64,000 nt of DNA from a virus (lineage: Duplodnaviria > Caudoviricetes): the IMG/VR virus record IMGVR_UViG_3300033177_000258, one strand, 5' to 3'. Numbering within the stretch: position 1 is the first letter of the stretch; each line of letters begins with the position of its first letter. Shown one piece after another: positions 10,938 through 17,539 of this stretch. The position numbers and the translations under genes were made by a program. Below the pieces are notes generated by a model. That model saw nothing but the letters and a program-made list of their open reading frames with translations, searched no databases and was not told the origin of the DNA.

Positions 10938-13049
10938 ATGTCCACCGGAGCCTTCTTCCTAACCCCCTCGCGACCGAAGTTCGTCATGGCCCAGTTGGCC
11001 CAGATGGTTGACTGGGGCGCGTTGATGGTTGGCTCTTCCGTGCATAAGGGCGAGGGGGTCAAGGTGGGAGTGCTGGACACCGGGTGCGCTCGCAACCACC
11101 CCGACCTCAAGGATGCCATCTTCACGTTCAATGACATCAGCGGCGGCAGCAAGGATGATGGCGACGGCCACGGGTGCGTTACCCCTGACAGCATGGTCTA
11201 CTCTTCTCTATGCGGGCTCCAAAACATCGAGACCTTGTTCGACGCAGCCCCAGGCATAGCGCACCTTCTCCCCGATGGTTCGGTCATCAAGGATGTGTCT
11301 CGTTACAGCCTGAAAACATTCTCTTTGGGCGCAGACGGACGGTGCGTCCCCTCTAATCTCAGCCACATCCACAAGTTGGCCTACGCCGGAGAGCTGGTGG
11401 ATGTCGTCACCAGACACGGGGTATTGCGTCTTACGCCGTGGCACCCCGTCTATGTGGTGGGTTCGCGGGCGGGCTCCGAAACGGTTAAGAGGATTCGGGC
11501 CGACGAACTCAGGGTTGGTCATTGTGTCGCGATAGCGCGCCAGCCAGCGGGCGAAGTAGGGGAGACAGTGTATATCCCGCTCAGCCGGCGCTGGGTCTGC
11601 AGGTGGTGTGGCTACGAAGCAAAAGGGGGAAAGAGAGCCACCTGTCGTTCGTGCAACAGGAGGAACTGGCATGAAGGAGCATCCGACCGCTCTATCGCCC
11701 TGGATGAACGACTTGCGTATTGGCTTGGGCTGGTCGTGTCAGACGGTCATGTGGCCAAGAGCGACACTTGTGTCTCGTTCACGTCAAAAGACCCAGAGCT
11801 TCTTAGTATCTTCGAGTCGGTGTCCGCCGAGCTGTTCGGTATTACGAGCAGCCGCCCCCCAAGTCATCCCATAGAAACCCGCCTGCACTCGGTTGACGTG
11901 TGGAGAATGCTTGTGGACGGGCTTGGTATTCCGGCCGGCAACAAGTCGCGGTGTATTGCACTTCCTGAGCTTGTGGCTAAGTCGCCTACGCCCATCATCG
12001 CGGCGTTCGTAGCTGGGTTGGTAGAAGGTGACGGTAGTGTGGGGGAGCAACGGCGTGTCCGTATAGCAACTGGCTCCATCCAGTTTGCCCAAAAGCTCTC
12101 CATGCTTCTGAAGACGATTGGCGTTTCGGCGAGCTACAGTGAAAACCGCTCTGAGGGTGGATTCAAGGTTAAGACCGCGAAGCCATCATATTCGGTGCGC
12201 GTTGGCCGCTGGAGCGCCCTAGACGCCCAGCTTAGGTTCAAAGTATCAGTTGGCGCGGGGATGCGCAAGGAGAGAAAAAGCTCCGAGGTGCTGTCCGTGG
12301 GTCGGTCCTCCTACAATGGCCCGTTGTACGACTTCACCGTTCCCGAGCACCACAACTATGTAGCTAATGGCTTCATCGTGAGCAACACCCACGTCTCTGG
12401 CATCATCGGCGCCCGCGACAACGACGCCGGCATTATCGGCGTCGCGCCTTCCTGTCAGCTTGGCATCTACAAGGTCCTGTCTGACACTGGCTGGGGCGAG
12501 TTCGACTGGTTCGTCAAAGCCATCTATGCCGCCCTGGAAGACGGCTGCCAGGTCATCAACCTAAGCCTTGGCTCCAACGAAACCCCTCCCGAAACCGTAC
12601 ACAATGCCATCCAAGACGCGCGCCGCGCCGGCTGCCTCATCTTCGCGGCTTCGGGCAACGACGGGAACGGTGTACCCGCCACGGGCGACGCGGTGGATTT
12701 CCCGGCTCGTTGGGAAGAAGTCATCGCCGTCGCTGCCGTTGAGCGCGACAGGGCCCACTCCAACTTCAGCTCCCCCGGCCCGAGCGTAGCCATCTGCGCC
12801 CCCGGACGCGACATCTACTCCTGCTGGCCCGAGACAGGCTACGCCCTCGACACCGGCACCAGCATGGCGTGCCCGTTCGTTTCTGGTGCGGCCGCTGTCT
12901 ACTGGTCACACTTCCTGGCCGAGGGCCATGAGCACAAGGACATTGCCCAGCTCGTCTGGGCTCAGATGCAGAAGGACGCACAAGACTTGGGCGACCCAGG
13001 CTGCGACCCACTCTATGGTTGCGGGTTGGTTAGAGTCAAGGTGAACTAA
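10938..13049 (+). CDS. S8 subtilisin-like serine protease interrupted by an intein
   Basis: VLDTG, HG|TH, ASGN, GTSMACP catalytic motifs. Confidence 0.93.
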   Translation: MSTGAFFLTPSRPKFVMAQLAQMVDWGALMVGSSVHKGEGVKVGVLDTGCARNHPDLKDAIFTFNDISGGSKDDGDGHGCVTPDSMVYSSLCGLQNIETLFDAAPGIAHLLPDGSVIKDVSRYSLKTFSLGADGRCVPSNLSHIHKLAYAGELVDVVTRHGVLRLTPWHPVYVVGSRAGSETVKRIRADELRVGHCVAIARQPAGEVGETVYIPLSRRWVCRWCGYEAKGGKRATCRSCNRRNWHEGASDRSIALDERLAYWLGLVVSDGHVAKSDTCVSFTSKDPELLSIFESVSAELFGITSSRPPSHPIETRLHSVDVWRMLVDGLGIPAGNKSRCIALPELVAKSPTPIIAAFVAGLVEGDGSVGEQRRVRIATGSIQFAQKLSMLLKTIGVSASYSENRSEGGFKVKTAKPSYSVRVGRWSALDAQLRFKVSVGAGMRKERKSSEVLSVGRSSYNGPLYDFTVPEHHNYVANGFIVSNTHVSGIIGARDNDAGIIGVAPSCQLGIYKVLSDTGWGEFDWFVKAIYAALEDGCQVINLSLGSNETPPETVHNAIQDARRAGCLIFAASGNDGNGVPATGDAVDFPARWEEVIAVAAVERDRAHSNFSSPGPSVAICAPGRDIYSCWPETGYALDTGTSMACPFVSGAAAVYWSHFLAEGHEHKDIAQLVWAQMQKDAQDLGDPGCDPLYGCGLVRVKVN
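11175..12386 (+). mobile_element. Intein (404 aa) with LAGLIDADG homing endonuclease
   Basis: Starts CVTPDS, block B LTPWHP, LGLVVSDG and VAGLVEGDG, ends NYVANGFIVSN, +1 Thr; removal restores HGTH. Confidence 0.93.
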
Positions 13050-14140: not shown

Positions 14141-14168
14141 CAGGGGCGCCCCGTCTGGGGCGCCCCTG
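14141..14168. terminator. GC-rich hairpin terminator between convergent phoH and Ro60 genes
   Basis: Perfect 12-bp stem CAGGGGCGCCCC/GGGGCGCCCCTG, 4-nt loop. Confidence 0.75.
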
Positions 14169-14204: not shown

Positions 14205-15938
14205 TTAGCCGGGCTCCCCGCATCCGTTGTTGTCAGGGCCCTTGTAGGTGGCCGTGGCAACCTTCCTGATGTAGTCCTCCACGTCCTTCACCATACCATC
14301 CCGCCGCCATCCCCCGAGCAGCTTGAACATGGAGTCGTTCATGCCGGAGAGCTCCAAGACCCACGGGGCCTCCGGGAAGTCCAGGGTGCCGTAGCCGCCC
14401 AGGCACACGTTGACCAGCTTCATGCCGGGGTTGCGGTGCCGGAGCATCTTCAGAGGCTCGCTCTGGAACACCGTGTCGCCCCGGTAGTACGCCTGGCACG
14501 GGCGGGTCTCCCCTACCTGCTTGCGCGGCACGCGCTGGGTGCCCGGCAGCCAGCTCTCGTTGTCAGTCAGCGCGAACACCATGTCGTACTTGTTACCCGT
14601 CAGGGCTCCTTCGTACAGGGCGTTGGTGACCGACGTGGCACCCCCAGCCTGCGGGATGGCGTCCATGATGGCGCCGATACCGTAGGACGGGTCCACATTG
14701 ACGCGGAACGCGCGGTTGTTGTAGGCGATGATGTCCGCATGGTCGGACTTCTTGTAGATGGCGGCCGCGAACAGGGCGGCGATGTCGCGGAGGCAGCGTT
14801 CGCTCTTCTCCGATACCTTCTCGTCCATGCTACCGCTCACATCCACCAGGATGAGGGCATTGCCAACCTCCGGGATGTTGCGGCAGGAGCGTACCATGGC
14901 TTCCTCCAGCGCCAGGATGGCGTCGCGGTAGCGTCCACCAGTGATGGTGCCGCTGGCTGCCTTGAGCGCCTCACGCGCAGAGTAGAAGCGGTACGGGAAG
15001 ACCAGGCCGTCAGCCGCCGCCATGATGCGGTCGCGGTCTACCGGCAGGTCGGTCATCTGCAGGATGGAGCGGATGTTCATGACGTAGGCCATCGGCTGCA
15101 TTGAAGCCGCAGCCATGGTCCAGGCTTCCTTGGTGCGCCCGAACTTGGACGTGATGTTGTTCCAGGCCGGCCCGCGCGCGATGTCCGCCACGCTCTCGAT
15201 GTCCTCAGCCAGGTCCACGCGGAACTTGTTCACCACGTCGGTGAGCCCGCGCTCCTGGGCCCACGCCATGTCGAACGTGCGGCCCTCGGCCTCGAAGTTG
15301 ACCAGCCAGTCGAACAGTGCTTCCTGCTCCGGCGAAGTCGGCTTCGGCCGGCTGATGCGGATGGCGTCGCGCATCTCGATGGACCGGGAGCGGCCGTGGT
15401 ACTTGATGGCATCGTACTGCGTGATGCGCTGCAGGCGCTGGGCCAGGAGACGCAGCATGGAACGCGGCATGACACCGCTGTTGCCCGAGAGCATGTTGTA
15501 GGCTGCCAAGAGCTCGGCCGGCTCGTCGGCGCGGCGCAACACCTTCATCCCGAACTCGCGCATCCAGTTGACGGTCTTGCCGCCGATGACGCACGTCTTC
15601 GGAGCCAAGGTCTGCTTCCAGTACGGGTGGGTGGCCATCATGGCCGTCAGGAAGACCGGCATGGCACGGAGGCCCAGCTCATTGCGCAGGTAGGCCGCCA
15701 ACCCCATGACGTACTCGGGGCGGTGCTGGCCCAGCGGGCCGTGCACGATGGCGCGAATCTGGTCCATGAGCTGGTCGCCCTGCTGGTAGTAACGGTCCTC
15801 CACGAAGTTCGTGGCCGTCATGAGCAGGAGCTTCTTCTCATCGGTCTGGGGCTCCCAGGCCGGTCCCCCGGCCAGGTTGCGGGTGTTGGTGGCCGGGACT
15901 ACTGAGCCCAGGCCGCGCGTCGTGGTTGTTGCCTTCAT
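14205..15938 (-). CDS. Ro60/TROVE-domain RNA-binding protein with C-terminal vWA domain
   Basis: TROVE motifs (YLRNELGLR, RADE, KY..R, RDAIRISRPKP, FPYRFYSA); MIDAS DVSGSM, GGAT, LTDNE. Confidence 0.92.
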   Translation of the reverse strand: MKATTTTRGLGSVVPATNTRNLAGGPAWEPQTDEKKLLLMTATNFVEDRYYQQGDQLMDQIRAIVHGPLGQHRPEYVMGLAAYLRNELGLRAMPVFLTAMMATHPYWKQTLAPKTCVIGGKTVNWMREFGMKVLRRADEPAELLAAYNMLSGNSGVMPRSMLRLLAQRLQRITQYDAIKYHGRSRSIEMRDAIRISRPKPTSPEQEALFDWLVNFEAEGRTFDMAWAQERGLTDVVNKFRVDLAEDIESVADIARGPAWNNITSKFGRTKEAWTMAAASMQPMAYVMNIRSILQMTDLPVDRDRIMAAADGLVFPYRFYSAREALKAASGTITGGRYRDAILALEEAMVRSCRNIPEVGNALILVDVSGSMDEKVSEKSERCLRDIAALFAAAIYKKSDHADIIAYNNRAFRVNVDPSYGIGAIMDAIPQAGGATSVTNALYEGALTGNKYDMVFALTDNESWLPGTQRVPRKQVGETRPCQAYYRGDTVFQSEPLKMLRHRNPGMKLVNVCLGGYGTLDFPEAPWVLELSGMNDSMFKLLGGWRRDGMVKDVEDYIRKVATATYKGPDNNGCGEPG

Positions 15939-15960: not shown

Positions 15961-16076
15961 AAACGGGGCCCTTGCTAACTGATGACGAGAAGAGAAGCGG
16001 CGGCGATGTTGCCGTTCTTACCGAGTGATGTAATCGCAGCCTACTGCTACGTCGTCAGCTAGCAAGGACCACGTTT
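15961..16076 (-). ncRNA. Ro60-associated structured RNA unit 1 (Y RNA-like scaffold, 18-nt insert)
   Basis: Shared scaffold GACG-UAGCAGUA-9bp stem-UACAUCA; long outer stem. Confidence 0.75.
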
Positions 16077-16096
16077 GGCAATGTGGGACCTGCTGC

Positions 16097-16224
16097 GTTC
16101 GTGGGCTGTGCTGGCTCATCGGCGAGGATGGGAGCGGCGGCGACGTGGTATCGGTCTCGATTAGCAGTCGGGTGATGTAGTCGCAACCTACTACTACGCC
16201 GATAGGCCAGCACAGCCTACGAAC
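16097..16224 (-). ncRNA. Ro60-associated structured RNA unit 2 (28-nt insert)
   Basis: Same scaffold; long outer stem. Confidence 0.75.
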
Positions 16225-16233
16225 AAATGCGTT

Positions 16234-16378
16234 ACTGACGAGAATGGATGGCGGAAACGACGAACAGTTTTACTCTACCAACTGAGCTACCGACCGGCGT
16301 TGCCGGTGGGCTGGACTCGAACCAGCGACCTTCACTTACCAGGGTGATGATGTAGTCGTTTCCTGCTACTACGTCAGT
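16234..16378 (-). ncRNA. Ro60-associated RNA unit 3 with circularly permuted tRNA-like domain (YrlA-like)
   Basis: T arm GCUGG-UUCGAGU-CCAGC precedes a loop-closed acceptor stem and D arm UAGCUCAGUUGGUAGAGU, inside the shared scaffold. Confidence 0.85.
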
Positions 16379-16389
16379 GAACAAGCTGA

Positions 16390-16566
16390 GGGACGAGAAC
16401 GGGGTGGCGGCGCCGAGAGTGTATCGGCCGCACTGAGGGTGCGGTTGCTCCCCACTGGAGCACGGTTCCCCATACAGTCTGGGAACCAATGGTTCGAACC
16501 TTAGAGTGATGTACTCGACTGGTTCGAACCTTAGAGTGATGTACTCGACACCTACTACTACGTCCC
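16390..16566 (-). ncRNA. Ro60-associated structured RNA unit 4 (multi-hairpin insert)
   Basis: Same scaffold; several hairpins; internal 30-bp duplication. Confidence 0.75.
16490..16549. repeat. Exact 30-bp tandem duplication
   Basis: TGGTTCGAACCTTAGAGTGATGTACTCGAC x2. Confidence 0.95.
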
Positions 16567-16576
16567 AAAGACGGTG

Positions 16577-16703
16577 AACCGGACGAGATTGGATGCGGTA
16601 GCGAGGGAACGCGATGGTCGCCTGAGCGGCCACACCTCTAAAGCCCCGTGGGGGCTCCGATTGCAGAGATGATGTACTCGCTGCCTACTACTACGTCCAG
16701 GTT
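16577..16703 (-). ncRNA. Ro60-associated structured RNA unit 5 (64-nt insert)
   Basis: Same scaffold; first unit after the promoter. Confidence 0.75.
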
Positions 16704-16732
16704 GTTTGTAATGGTTCACGTGCGACAGGTGC

Positions 16733-16761
16733 ATTGTAGAGACGCCGGCGATGCTTGTCAA
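16733..16761 (-). promoter_or_regulatory. Sigma70-type promoter for RNA array and Ro60
   Basis: TTGACA-N17-TACAAT on minus strand. Confidence 0.85.
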
Positions 16762-16877: not shown

Positions 16878-17334
16878 TAATATGTCTCGTGGGGACATAT
16901 TACCGAGCCTAATATGTCTCGTGGGGACATATTACCGAGCCTAATATGTCTCGTGGGGACATATTACCGAGCCTAATATGTCTCGCGGAGACATACTACT
17001 CGGGTCCATCGGGCTTAATATGTCTCCTGGGGACCAATTGAAGATGGTAAGAAAACGCTAAATGGTCTCGTGGGGACATATTACCGTGGCTATTTTGTGA
17101 AAATCAGGTAAGGAACTGGTAAGACGCCTGTCCGGGCGCCCAGATTGGGCAGGTGGCGTAAAGATACATAAATAGACGCAGAAATGCTCTCTGCCCAACA
17201 AGCCCCTGAGCCCCAGGGGCTGAGCACGTTTCTCCGAAGAATCGGAGAGCCCCATTGTAATATGTCCCCACGAGACATATTAACCCCCAAAGCTGGCCTC
17301 CCATCCGAGAACCTAATATGTCCCCACGAGACAT
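16878..17334. repeat. Array of 25-bp imperfect palindromes (6 direct, 2 inverted), putative origin/iterons
   Basis: TAATATGTCTCGTGGGGACATATTA at 16878, 16910, 16942; variants at 16974, 17016, 17059; reverse copies at 17258, 17314. Confidence 0.85.
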
Positions 17335-17539
17335 TCAAAAAAACGCAACAAACAGAGCCAAAAGTACAGGATGACCAGCCAAACCTGTACACTAAATTGT
17401 GTCCAAACTCGGAACTTGGAAGAGAAATCACCTAGAGGAATCTCTTTATTGGGATGTATCCCGAGAAGTAGTAGGTAGAATCCTACTAGGCCATCCAGCT
17501 CCCCCCAACAGTCTCATCGGAGAATCTCCAAGAAACCCC

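What the first reader, a model, noticed from the sequence alone, without database searches (positions are those of the whole stretch)
15961..16761. Ro60 operon with five modular RNAs: constant scaffold, variable cargo
Seen: between a TTGACA-N17-TACAAT promoter and the Ro60 gene lie five units. Each reads (minus strand) outer stem-GRCG, UAGYAGYA, a 9-bp stem, invariant UACAUCA, an insert, the partner strand, a pyrimidine-rich loop and CGYC. The 9-bp stem differs among units but keeps pairing (e.g. GGAAACGAC/GUCGUUUCC, GGUGUCGAG/CUCGGCGCC), which is covariation. Inserts are 18, 28, 86, 119 and 64 nt and largely unrelated. Established: bacterial and some phage Ro60 genes have adjacent Y RNAs that tether effectors such as PNPase. 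Inference: a Ro60 RNP diversified by an array of exchangeable RNA modules, with a Ro-binding motif that does not match the canonical bulged helix as I recall it.
Basis: partly seen in the sequence, partly recalled or inferred. Interest (0 to 1): 0.9.

Follow-up and report, generated by a model that had tools for sequence, protein, structure and literature searches.

The report
Five-RNA Y-RNA operon with phage Ro60
A large uncultured wastewater phage encodes, in one operon, five small RNAs with the same two-stem "handle" and different interiors, followed by a Ro60-type ring protein. It is a five-RNA version of the known Ro60/Y-RNA particle, and many other uncultured phages carry similar arrays.

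Summary
On the minus strand a consensus promoter (16761-16733) is followed by five tandem units (16698-15962), a 577-aa Ro60 gene (15938-14205) and a terminator (14168-14141). All five units share outer stem-UAGYAGYA-9-bp stem-UACAUCA-cargo-partner strand-pyrimidine loop-CGYC. The motif occurs 5 times against 0.13 expected. Both stems covary (94% paired, 8 of 16 pairs compensatory, 0 of 500 shuffles as good). The protein folds as Ro60, nearest to Thermus phage phiLo Ro60. Unit 3 is a YrlA-type, circularly permuted tRNA mimic. Unit 2 has T-arm-like cargo, and units 4 and 5 are long hairpins with small cargo.

The handle is not a new Ro-binding design. A model built only from other phages' RNAs recognises units 4 and 5. 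It also finds handle-sharing units upstream of Ro60 genes, same strand, in about 40 of 85 phage loci. By that model or by eye, arrays reach 3 units in Streptomyces phage Satis, 6 in L086 and 6-7 in L069. This locus is therefore one divergent member of a widespread phage multi-Y-RNA operon type. Papers I could read describe only two RNAs per locus. This scan has flagged the same type before on other DNA. Transcription, processing and Ro60 binding remain untested.

The parts
16733..16761 (-). Sigma-70-type promoter TTGACA-17-TACAAT; predicted start about 16726, roughly 28 nt before unit 1
   Evidence: 11/12 match, the only such site in the window (0.05 expected). Function is inferred.
16581..16698 (-). 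Unit 1: handle plus 64-nt cargo with two hairpins
   Evidence: model R1 68.2 bits. A sister strain has one extra base in a hairpin loop.
16390..16566 (-). Unit 2: handle plus 119-nt cargo holding a T-loop-like GGUUCGAACC (twice, because of a 30-nt tandem duplication at 16490-16549) and three hairpins
   Evidence: The duplication is absent in the sister strain.
16236..16376 (-). Unit 3: handle plus 86-nt YrlA-type cargo. The order is anticodon-arm-like hairpin, 5-nt variable loop, T arm, closed acceptor-like stem, D arm, which is a circularly permuted tRNA mimic.
   Evidence: Rfam YrlA RF02553 matches model positions 27-81 at 27.9 bits, E 0.0016. ARAGORN calls the un-permuted order a tRNA and the native order not. 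The T and D arm words recur upstream of more than 30 other phage Ro60 genes.
16097..16221 (-). Unit 4: handle (core 16120-16201) plus 28-nt cargo, enclosed by an outer stem of about 20 bp
   Evidence: R1 72.4 bits; foreign-built model R2 28.5 bits. The sister-strain change at 16104 turns G-C into G-U.
15962..16074 (-). Unit 5: handle (core 15983-16054) plus 18-nt cargo, enclosed by an outer stem of about 23 bp
   Evidence: R1 70.5 bits; R2 44.4 bits, E 4e-9. The sister-strain change at 16071 turns a U.C mismatch into G-C.
14205..15938 (-). Ro60 (TROVE/HEAT ring plus vWA with a DxSxS metal site), 577 aa, preceded by a GAGGAAAGG ribosome-binding site
   Evidence: Pfam vWA_Ro60 33.2 bits against a 27.7 cut-off; phrog_850 E 1e-20; PDB 9KOP/9L5Y phiLo Ro60 E 4.5e-24. 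The AlphaFold model has pLDDT 78.7 and pTM 0.80, and its top 13 fold matches are all Ro60 structures.
14141..14168 (-). Intrinsic-terminator-like hairpin (12 bp, 11 G-C) after the Ro60 stop; no terminator-like site was found between the units
16880..17336 (.). Cluster of eight 21-nt palindromes (ATATGTCTCGTGGGGACATAT) just upstream of the operon. It may be an operator or origin hub; whether it belongs to the operon is uncertain.
   Evidence: 15 strand-matches, all in this interval, none expected.

Best explanation
This is a polycistronic phage operon: one strong host-type promoter, five Y-RNA-like (Yrl) genes, a Ro60 gene and a terminator. I infer that the primary transcript is cut in the 13-22-nt spacers into five RNAs, as shown for M. 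smegmatis YrlA/YrlB. Each RNA closes its 5' and 3' ends in an outer stem. An asymmetric internal loop follows, with purine-rich UAGYAGYA on the 5' side and 11-13 pyrimidine-rich nt on the 3' side, and then a 9-bp inner stem capped by UACAUCA. This constant handle is the inferred docking site for the phage Ro60 ring. The variable cargo is a permuted tRNA mimic (unit 3), a T-arm-like element with hairpins (unit 2), two hairpins (unit 1) or small loops on long hairpins (units 4 and 5). The cargo would give each Ro60 particle a different partner or specificity, for example host PNPase or tRNA-binding enzymes. Shown here: the sequence anatomy, the covariation, the homology of the handle and of the protein, and recurrence of the operon plan. 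Inferred: transcription, processing, binding and partner recruitment.
For: The five exact handles are far above chance and both helices covary. The promoter and terminator bracket the RNAs and Ro60 with no internal terminator. The protein has the full-length Ro60 fold and is closest to phiLo Ro60. That protein binds two upstream Yrl RNAs and forms complexes with host PNPase in vitro (PMC12135203). Unit 3 carries the YrlA T/acceptor/D module. Chen et al. [quoted passage not shown] In M. smegmatis they are processed from one precursor upstream of rsr. Model R1, built from the five handles, found its best foreign hits on the Ro60 strand just upstream of other phage Ro60 genes. Model R2, built only from seven of those foreign hits, scored window units 5 and 4 at 44.4 and 28.5 bits. 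All of its roughly 80 foreign hits were on the Ro60 strand, and nearly all were upstream. L086 shows the same plan: TTGACA, six units, then Ro60. In a sister strain the four substitutions and one 1-nt insertion in the array lie in loops or the leader, or keep or restore pairing.
Against: There is no direct evidence of transcription, processing or Ro60 binding. No unit reaches the Rfam YrlA gathering score (27.9 against 69 bits). The published CGAA core is not present as such (CGUA or AGUA instead). Pfam TROVE (PF05731) does not hit the protein at E 0.001 or better. R2 missed units 1-3 with default filters, probably because of their long cargoes. The covariation is measured among five paralogues in one genome, so it rests on few independent events. 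The 30-nt duplication may impair unit 2 in this strain.
Confidence: 0.8

Rival explanations
1. The five structures are not released as separate RNAs. They act in cis as a long structured 5' leader of the Ro60 mRNA, for example as Ro60 binding sites that autoregulate translation or stability.
For: There is one promoter and no internal terminators, and unit 5 ends only 23 nt before the start codon, next to the ribosome-binding site.
Against: The cargoes are elaborate and differ from each other, including a complete tRNA mimic, which a leader does not need. Characterised homologous loci release separate RNAs (PMC4201824). Arrays in other phages vary from 1 to 7 units.
Confidence: 0.08
2. The cargoes are mainly decoys or sponges for host tRNA-directed enzymes, such as anticodon nucleases or other tRNA-cleaving defences. 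In this reading Ro60 serves mostly to stabilise them rather than being targeted by them.
For: Unit 3 keeps an anticodon-arm-like hairpin in addition to the T, D and acceptor arms. Units 1-4 have a C-U-N-N-N-A-N heptamer, and unit 5 a looser form, within about 10 nt after UACAUCA (sequence). Phage Ro60 genes often sit in or beside tRNA arrays.
Against: Only units 3 and 4 place that heptamer in a plausible stem-loop. Such heptamers are frequent by chance. The units of L086 show no comparable motif after UUACUUC.
Confidence: 0.07
3. The region is decaying repeat DNA (tRNA-derived or duplicated junk) or holds a real protein gene (the 133-aa ORF at 16633-16232), with no RNA function.
For: ORFs of 133, 91 and 64 aa overlap the array, and unit 2 carries a recent duplication.
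Against: Compensatory changes keep two helices in all five copies. The ORFs have no Pfam match even at E 0.1. The same handle recurs upstream of Ro60 in distant phages. ARAGORN finds no tRNA gene.
Confidence: 0.03

Closest known systems
Thermus phage phiLo Ro60 with Yrl1 and Yrl2 (PMC12135203; PDB 9KOP, 9L5Y)
   Same: It is a phage Ro60 gene with Y-RNA-like genes directly upstream on the same strand, each a 5'-3' stem around a large internal loop. Its protein is the closest solved relative of the window's protein (E 4.5e-24; top fold hit).
   Different: phiLo has two RNAs and this locus has five. The published motif core is CGAA and here it is CGUA/AGUA. The proteins share only about 20-27% identity. 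phiLo binding to its Yrls and to host PNPase was shown in vitro; nothing is shown here.
Bacterial Rsr with YrlA/YrlB (Salmonella, M. smegmatis; Rfam RF02553; PMC4201824; 10.1101/312249)
   Same: The RNAs lie upstream of rsr on the same strand and, in M. smegmatis, are processed from one precursor. One RNA has a permuted T-arm/acceptor/D-arm tRNA mimic and another is a long hairpin or carries a T arm. A conserved 5'-strand motif is present.
   Different: Five RNAs instead of two. Unit 3 also keeps an anticodon-arm-like hairpin. No unit reaches the Rfam threshold, and the handle sequence is divergent.
Unannotated multi-Yrl arrays upstream of Ro60 in other phages, found here (IMG/VR loci L086, L069, L031, L054, L070; Streptomyces phage Satis; Gordonia phage Rabbitrun)
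   Same: The operon plan and the two-helix handle are the same, with three conserved elements in the same order. Cargo is variable, usually with one YrlA-type unit, and arrays hold 2-7 units.
   Different: The window's handle is a divergent sub-type: UAGYAGYAGG against GUGCGNAGG, UACAUCA against UUACUUC. Its exact 5' pattern was not found beside any Ro60 gene in IMG/VR or the JGI metagenomes.
Animal Y RNAs (hY1-hY5, Xenopus Y3) and D. radiodurans Yrn1/Yrn2
   Same: Several Y RNAs share one Ro60-binding stem and differ in the loop module that recruits other proteins (own knowledge and PMC4201824).
   Different: Animal Y RNAs have a two-stranded bulged helix and no tRNA-like module, and their genes are separate polymerase III units rather than an operon with Ro60.

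Membership tests
Y RNA (Ro60-partner non-coding RNA, functional class) | Encoded next to the Ro60 gene, on the same strand | tested here: met
   The units lie 23-760 nt upstream of the Ro60 start, on the same strand, between one promoter and one terminator.
Y RNA (Ro60-partner non-coding RNA, functional class) | The 5' and 3' ends pair into a stem that carries a conserved protein-binding element next to a large internal loop | tested here: met
   The outer and inner helices are 93.8% paired with 8 compensatory pairs. They flank an invariant asymmetric loop of 8 nt against 11-13 nt.
Y RNA (Ro60-partner non-coding RNA, functional class) | Physically bound and stabilised by Ro60 | not testable with these tools
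   This needs RIP, EMSA or a structure. No RNA-protein docking tool was available.
YrlA (Rfam RF02553) | Score at or above the family's gathering threshold (69 bits) | tested here: not met
   There was no match at gathering in the window. Unit 3 reaches 27.9 bits over model positions 27-81 only. Accepted-looking YrlA units of cultured actinophages also score below threshold, at 31-43 bits.
YrlA (Rfam RF02553) | tRNA-like module: T arm, closed acceptor-like stem and D arm in permuted order | tested here: met
   Met for unit 3 only: the cmscan alignment and the ARAGORN cloverleaf on the un-permuted order.
YrlA/YrlB | GNCGAA(N0-1)G motif near the 5' end (PMC4201824) | tested here: inconclusive
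   The exact motif is absent. GRCGUAG at the stem/loop junction differs at one position. By model alignment the family's GCG(A/U/C)AGG instead lines up with AG(U/C)AGG. The UAG triplet repeat leaves the register ambiguous.
Phage Yrl handle family (model R2, built here from 7 RNAs of other phages) | Recognised by a covariance model that contains no sequence from this window | tested here: met
   Unit 5 scores 44.4 bits (E 4e-9) and unit 4 scores 28.5 bits (E 1.5e-4) in a 667-kb search. Units 1-3, with long cargo, are not reported with default filters. Caveat: the seven seed RNAs were picked with a model made from the window's units.
Ro60 / TROVE-vWA protein | HEAT-repeat ring plus C-terminal vWA domain with a DxSxS metal site | tested here: met
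   The top 13 Foldseek PDB hits are Ro60 structures over about 540-580 alignment columns, TM 0.56-0.77. DVSGSM is conserved, with D366, S368 and S370 invariant in 20 homologues. Pfam vWA_Ro60 is above its cut-off.
Ro60 / TROVE-vWA protein | Pfam TROVE domain PF05731 match | tested here: not met
   There is no PF05731 hit at E 0.001 or better, although nearly all homologues carry it. The sequence is divergent (at most 31% identity to anything except its own strain variants), but the fold is kept.

The most novel reading that the evidence does not exclude
Large phages use Ro60 as a general docking platform for a library of RNAs. Some cargoes, such as the permuted tRNA with an anticodon-like arm and the T-arm-only units, would act as decoys or adaptors. 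They would neutralise or redirect host tRNA-directed defence nucleases and RNA-decay enzymes, making the multi-Yrl operon a counter-defence system rather than RNA housekeeping.
Probability: 0.1. Interest if true: 0.8.

Novelty: new variant of a known kind. Interest (0 to 1): 0.4.

Why it matters
What bacterial and phage Ro60/Y-RNA particles do is still largely unknown. This locus is a compact natural experiment: one protein and five RNAs with an identical handle but graded cargo, from a full tRNA mimic to almost none. That layout is convenient for asking which part binds Ro60 and which part recruits other factors. It suggests that multi-RNA Ro60 particles are a common phage tool. Published work I could read describes at most two RNAs per locus, and genome annotations omit them. 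For this window alone the gain is modest: it is one more, sequence-divergent, example.

Tried and rejected
1. Rfam at gathering threshold on the whole window gave no match. At E up to 10 the only meaningful hit is the partial YrlA match in unit 3; the miRNA, snoRNA and pseudoknot hits are noise.

2. Megablast of the locus against 50,697 phage records gave no match.

3. The exact 5'-handle pattern gave three hits in IMG/VR, all inside coding sequence. It gave 16 hits in JGI metagenomes, none beside a Ro60 homologue and none with a proper partner strand. All are chance matches.

4. The search for related loci with the single protein found nothing in IMG/VR; the 20-protein alignment was needed.

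6. Expression could not be judged. Two metatranscriptome runs were laid as contigs. The only pieces on the array are 18-23-nt matches to the D- and T-arm words of unit 3, joined by unrelated letters, which means genuine tRNAs of other organisms. One run has contigs over the 3' third of Ro60, but DNA carry-over cannot be excluded. This gives no verdict on transcription or processing.

7. The first MAFFT alignment of whole units put unit 2's 3' strand three columns out of register. I used a handle-only alignment instead.

8. The idea that each cargo starts with an anticodon-loop mimic could not be tested for function. It fits units 3 and 4 structurally, fits units 1, 2 and 5 poorly, and is not seen in L086. 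I kept it only as a low-probability reading.

9. Host identity is unresolved: DnaB and a 1213-aa protein have only remote phage relatives.

10. No whole genome is held for this window.

Full report
**What is there**

The window is 62% G+C. Other notes of this scan, which I did not check, describe it as part of a roughly 215-kb uncultured phage. Near-identical DNA is held by at least 14 sludge, wastewater, digester and bioreactor runs. Its genes include PhoH, a DnaB-like helicase and a subtilase with an intein, all with only remote phage relatives.

On the minus strand the order is as follows.
- A TTGACA-17-TACAAT promoter at 16761-16733. It is the only such site in 64 kb, against 0.05 expected.
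- Five tandem units between 16698 and 15962.
- A GAGGAAAGG ribosome-binding site.
- A 577-aa ORF at 15938-14205.
- A 12-bp G+C-rich terminator hairpin at 14168-14141.

No terminator-like site lies between the units.

**The repeat is real**

The 24-nt pattern TAGYAGYA-GG-N7-TACATCA occurs five times and nowhere else in the window, even with three mismatches allowed (0.13 expected). Each 9-nt stem strand finds its best partner 64, 119, 86, 28 and 18 nt downstream, with 8-9 of 9 pairs.

On a handle-only alignment (A3) the outer helix has 7 pairs and the inner helix 9 pairs.
- Together they are 93.8% paired.
- Eight of 16 pairs change on both sides.
- None of 500 shuffles reaches any of the five measures.
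- Sliding the 3' partners by 1-3 columns drops pairing to 27-63%.

Minimum-free-energy folds close every unit with its outer stem. In units 4 and 5 that stem extends to about 20-23 bp. The overlapping ORFs of 64-133 aa have no family match.

**The protein**

- Pfam reports vWA_Ro60 above its cut-off but not the TROVE domain.
- PHROGs gives phrog_850, "RNA-binding protein", at E 1e-20.
- phmmer against PDB sequences finds only the Ro60 of Thermus phage phiLo, at E 4.5e-24.
- Among 5.8 billion clustered proteins, the only close relative is a 99%-identical strain variant of 582 aa. Everything else is at most about 30% identical.
- An AlphaFold model built from a 20-sequence alignment has pLDDT 78.7 and pTM 0.80.
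- Its 13 best PDB fold matches are all Ro60 structures from phiLo, Xenopus, human and Deinococcus, aligned over nearly the full length.
- The DxSxS metal site of the vWA domain is conserved.

It is therefore a divergent but genuine Ro60.

**The cargoes**

Unit 3 matches the tRNA-like core of Rfam YrlA (model positions 27-81, 27.9 bits, E 0.0016). Read in order, its cargo is a 4-bp hairpin with an 8-nt loop, AGGUC, a canonical T arm, a 7-bp acceptor-like stem closed by a 5-nt loop, UA, a D arm and A.

This is a tRNA opened between the D arm and the anticodon arm. When the two halves are rejoined in tRNA order, ARAGORN calls a cloverleaf with an irregular anticodon loop. In native order it calls nothing.

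The other cargoes are as follows.
- Unit 2 holds a T-loop-like GGUUCGAACC and three hairpins.
- Unit 1 holds two hairpins.
- Units 4 and 5 have only 28 and 18 nt of cargo on long hairpins.

Apart from the T-loop word shared by units 2 and 3, the cargoes are unrelated to each other. Only the T and D arm words of unit 3 recur at other Ro60 loci.

This repertoire matches Chen et al. (PMC4201824) for all three bacteria they studied. [quoted passage not shown] M. smegmatis YrlB also carries a possible T arm, and both of its RNAs are processed from one precursor upstream of rsr.

**Relation to other loci**

The exact 5' handle is absent from IMG/VR and the JGI metagenomes except for chance hits in coding sequence.

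I then collected 80 phage Ro60 loci from IMG/VR using a protein alignment and five loci from annotated phages. A covariance model of the five handles (R1) gave weak hits. Its best foreign hits lay on the Ro60 strand within 800 nt upstream of the gene. The alignments show the same two helices and three conserved elements in the same order.

| Element | This window | Other phages |
|---|---|---|
| 5' loop and stem start | UAGYAGYAGG | G(U/C)GCG(A/U/C)AGG |
| After the inner stem | UACAUCA | UUACUUC |
| 3' loop end | (A/U)UCUCG | GGUUCUCG |

A second model was built only from seven of those foreign RNAs (R2). In them the structure is 88% paired with 10 compensatory pairs. R2 then found about 80 foreign hits at E 1 or better.
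- All of them are on the Ro60 strand.
- Nearly all lie upstream of the gene.
- It scored window unit 5 at 44.4 bits and unit 4 at 28.5 bits.

At E 0.01 or better, about 40 of the 85 loci have at least one unit. Counts at that threshold are six units in L069, five in L086 and four each in L031, L054 and L070. These are lower bounds, because long cargoes cost score. Other array sizes found are as follows.

| Locus | Units | Basis |
|---|---|---|
| L086 | 6, following a TTGACA box and preceding Ro60 | by eye and by an independent pattern count |
| L069 | up to 7 | a further YrlA-type match beside the six R2 hits |
| Streptomyces phage Satis | 3 unannotated units | |
| Gordonia phage Rabbitrun | 2-3 | |

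Most arrays contain one sub-threshold YrlA match.

**Sister strain**

A digester metagenome contig covers the whole locus. Relative to the window it lacks the 30-nt duplication in unit 2. It has four substitutions and one 1-nt insertion in the array or its leader, and one more substitution in the ribosome-binding site. Within the units:
- one change turns a U.C mismatch of unit 5's outer stem into G-C;
- one turns a G-C pair of unit 4's outer stem into G-U;
- two lie in hairpin loops.

The fourth substitution lies in the leader. The numbers are small but consistent with selection on structure.

**Interpretation**

The best reading, at about 0.8, is a Ro60/Y-RNA operon that produces five Y-like RNAs. 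They dock on one Ro60 through a common handle and differ in the module they present.

Three readings are less likely.
- An unprocessed autoregulatory leader (0.08).
- A mainly decoy role for the tRNA-like cargoes (0.07).
- Non-functional repeats or a protein gene (0.03).

The claim of a Ro-binding motif unlike the known one is not, because the handle is a divergent member of a handle family shared by many phage Yrl RNAs. The implied uniqueness also does not hold.

**Novelty**

Papers I could read describe two Yrl RNAs for a phage (PMC12135203) and at least two per bacterium (PMC4201824). A search of the held library found no description of longer phage arrays.

Relative to print, this is a many-RNA variant of a known system. 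Relative to sequence databases it is common. Earlier notes of this scan report arrays of 4, 7 and 8 handle-sharing RNAs beside phage Ro60-like genes on other DNA. I therefore score the interest of this instance as moderate.

**Limits**

- No whole genome is held for the window.
- The metatranscriptome contigs gave no verdict on expression.
- Ro60 binding cannot be tested with these tools.

Noticed in passing
window 16880-17336: Eight copies of the 21-nt palindrome ATATGTCTCGTGGGGACATAT occur only in this interval (none expected by chance). Three are exact copies at a 32-bp period. The cluster lies between the Yrl-Ro60 operon and the divergent plus-strand genes that start at 17399. It looks like an operator or origin hub.
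   Followed up: partly
L070:2563-2739 (IMGVR_UViG_3300002121_000006): A manA RNA (Rfam RF01745, 57.4 bits against a gathering score of 55.2) sits inside the Yrl array directly upstream of that phage's Ro60 gene. This hints that the function-unknown manA motif may be another Ro60-array cargo.
   Followed up: no
L023:1949-2360 (Streptomyces phage Satis MH576962) and L022:2030-2403 (Gordonia phage Rabbitrun): These cultured actinophages carry unannotated handle-sharing Yrl units upstream of their Ro-like genes: three in Satis and two to three in Rabbitrun. In Rabbitrun the last unit overlaps the annotated start of the Ro gene, which may therefore be set too far upstream.
   Followed up: partly
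L086:2195-2990 (IMGVR_UViG_3300037119_004556): This locus has the same operon plan as the window: a TTGACA box, six Yrl units with the handle GGUGCG.AG...UUACUUC...GGUUCUC, then Ro60.
   Followed up: yes
window 16490-16549 and 14207: The exact 30-nt tandem duplication in unit 2 repeats part of the handle plus the T-loop-like word, and it is absent in a sister strain. The same sister strains change the first base of the Ro60 stop codon, which fits the 582-aa variant P0001.
   Followed up: partly
window 10938-13049: A subtilase (Peptidase_S8) is interrupted by an intein with a LAGLIDADG homing endonuclease domain.
   Followed up: no
L024 (Arthrobacter phage Atuin), L103, L022: Several phage Ro60 genes sit inside or beside large tRNA gene arrays, with Yrl units interleaved among them.
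   Followed up: no
L020 (Halogranum tailed virus 1): The best annotated phage-collection match to the window's Ro60 is from a haloarchaeal virus (25% identity, E 6e-33). Neither the handle models nor Rfam YrlA found a Yrl unit within 2.5 kb of that gene.
   Followed up: partly
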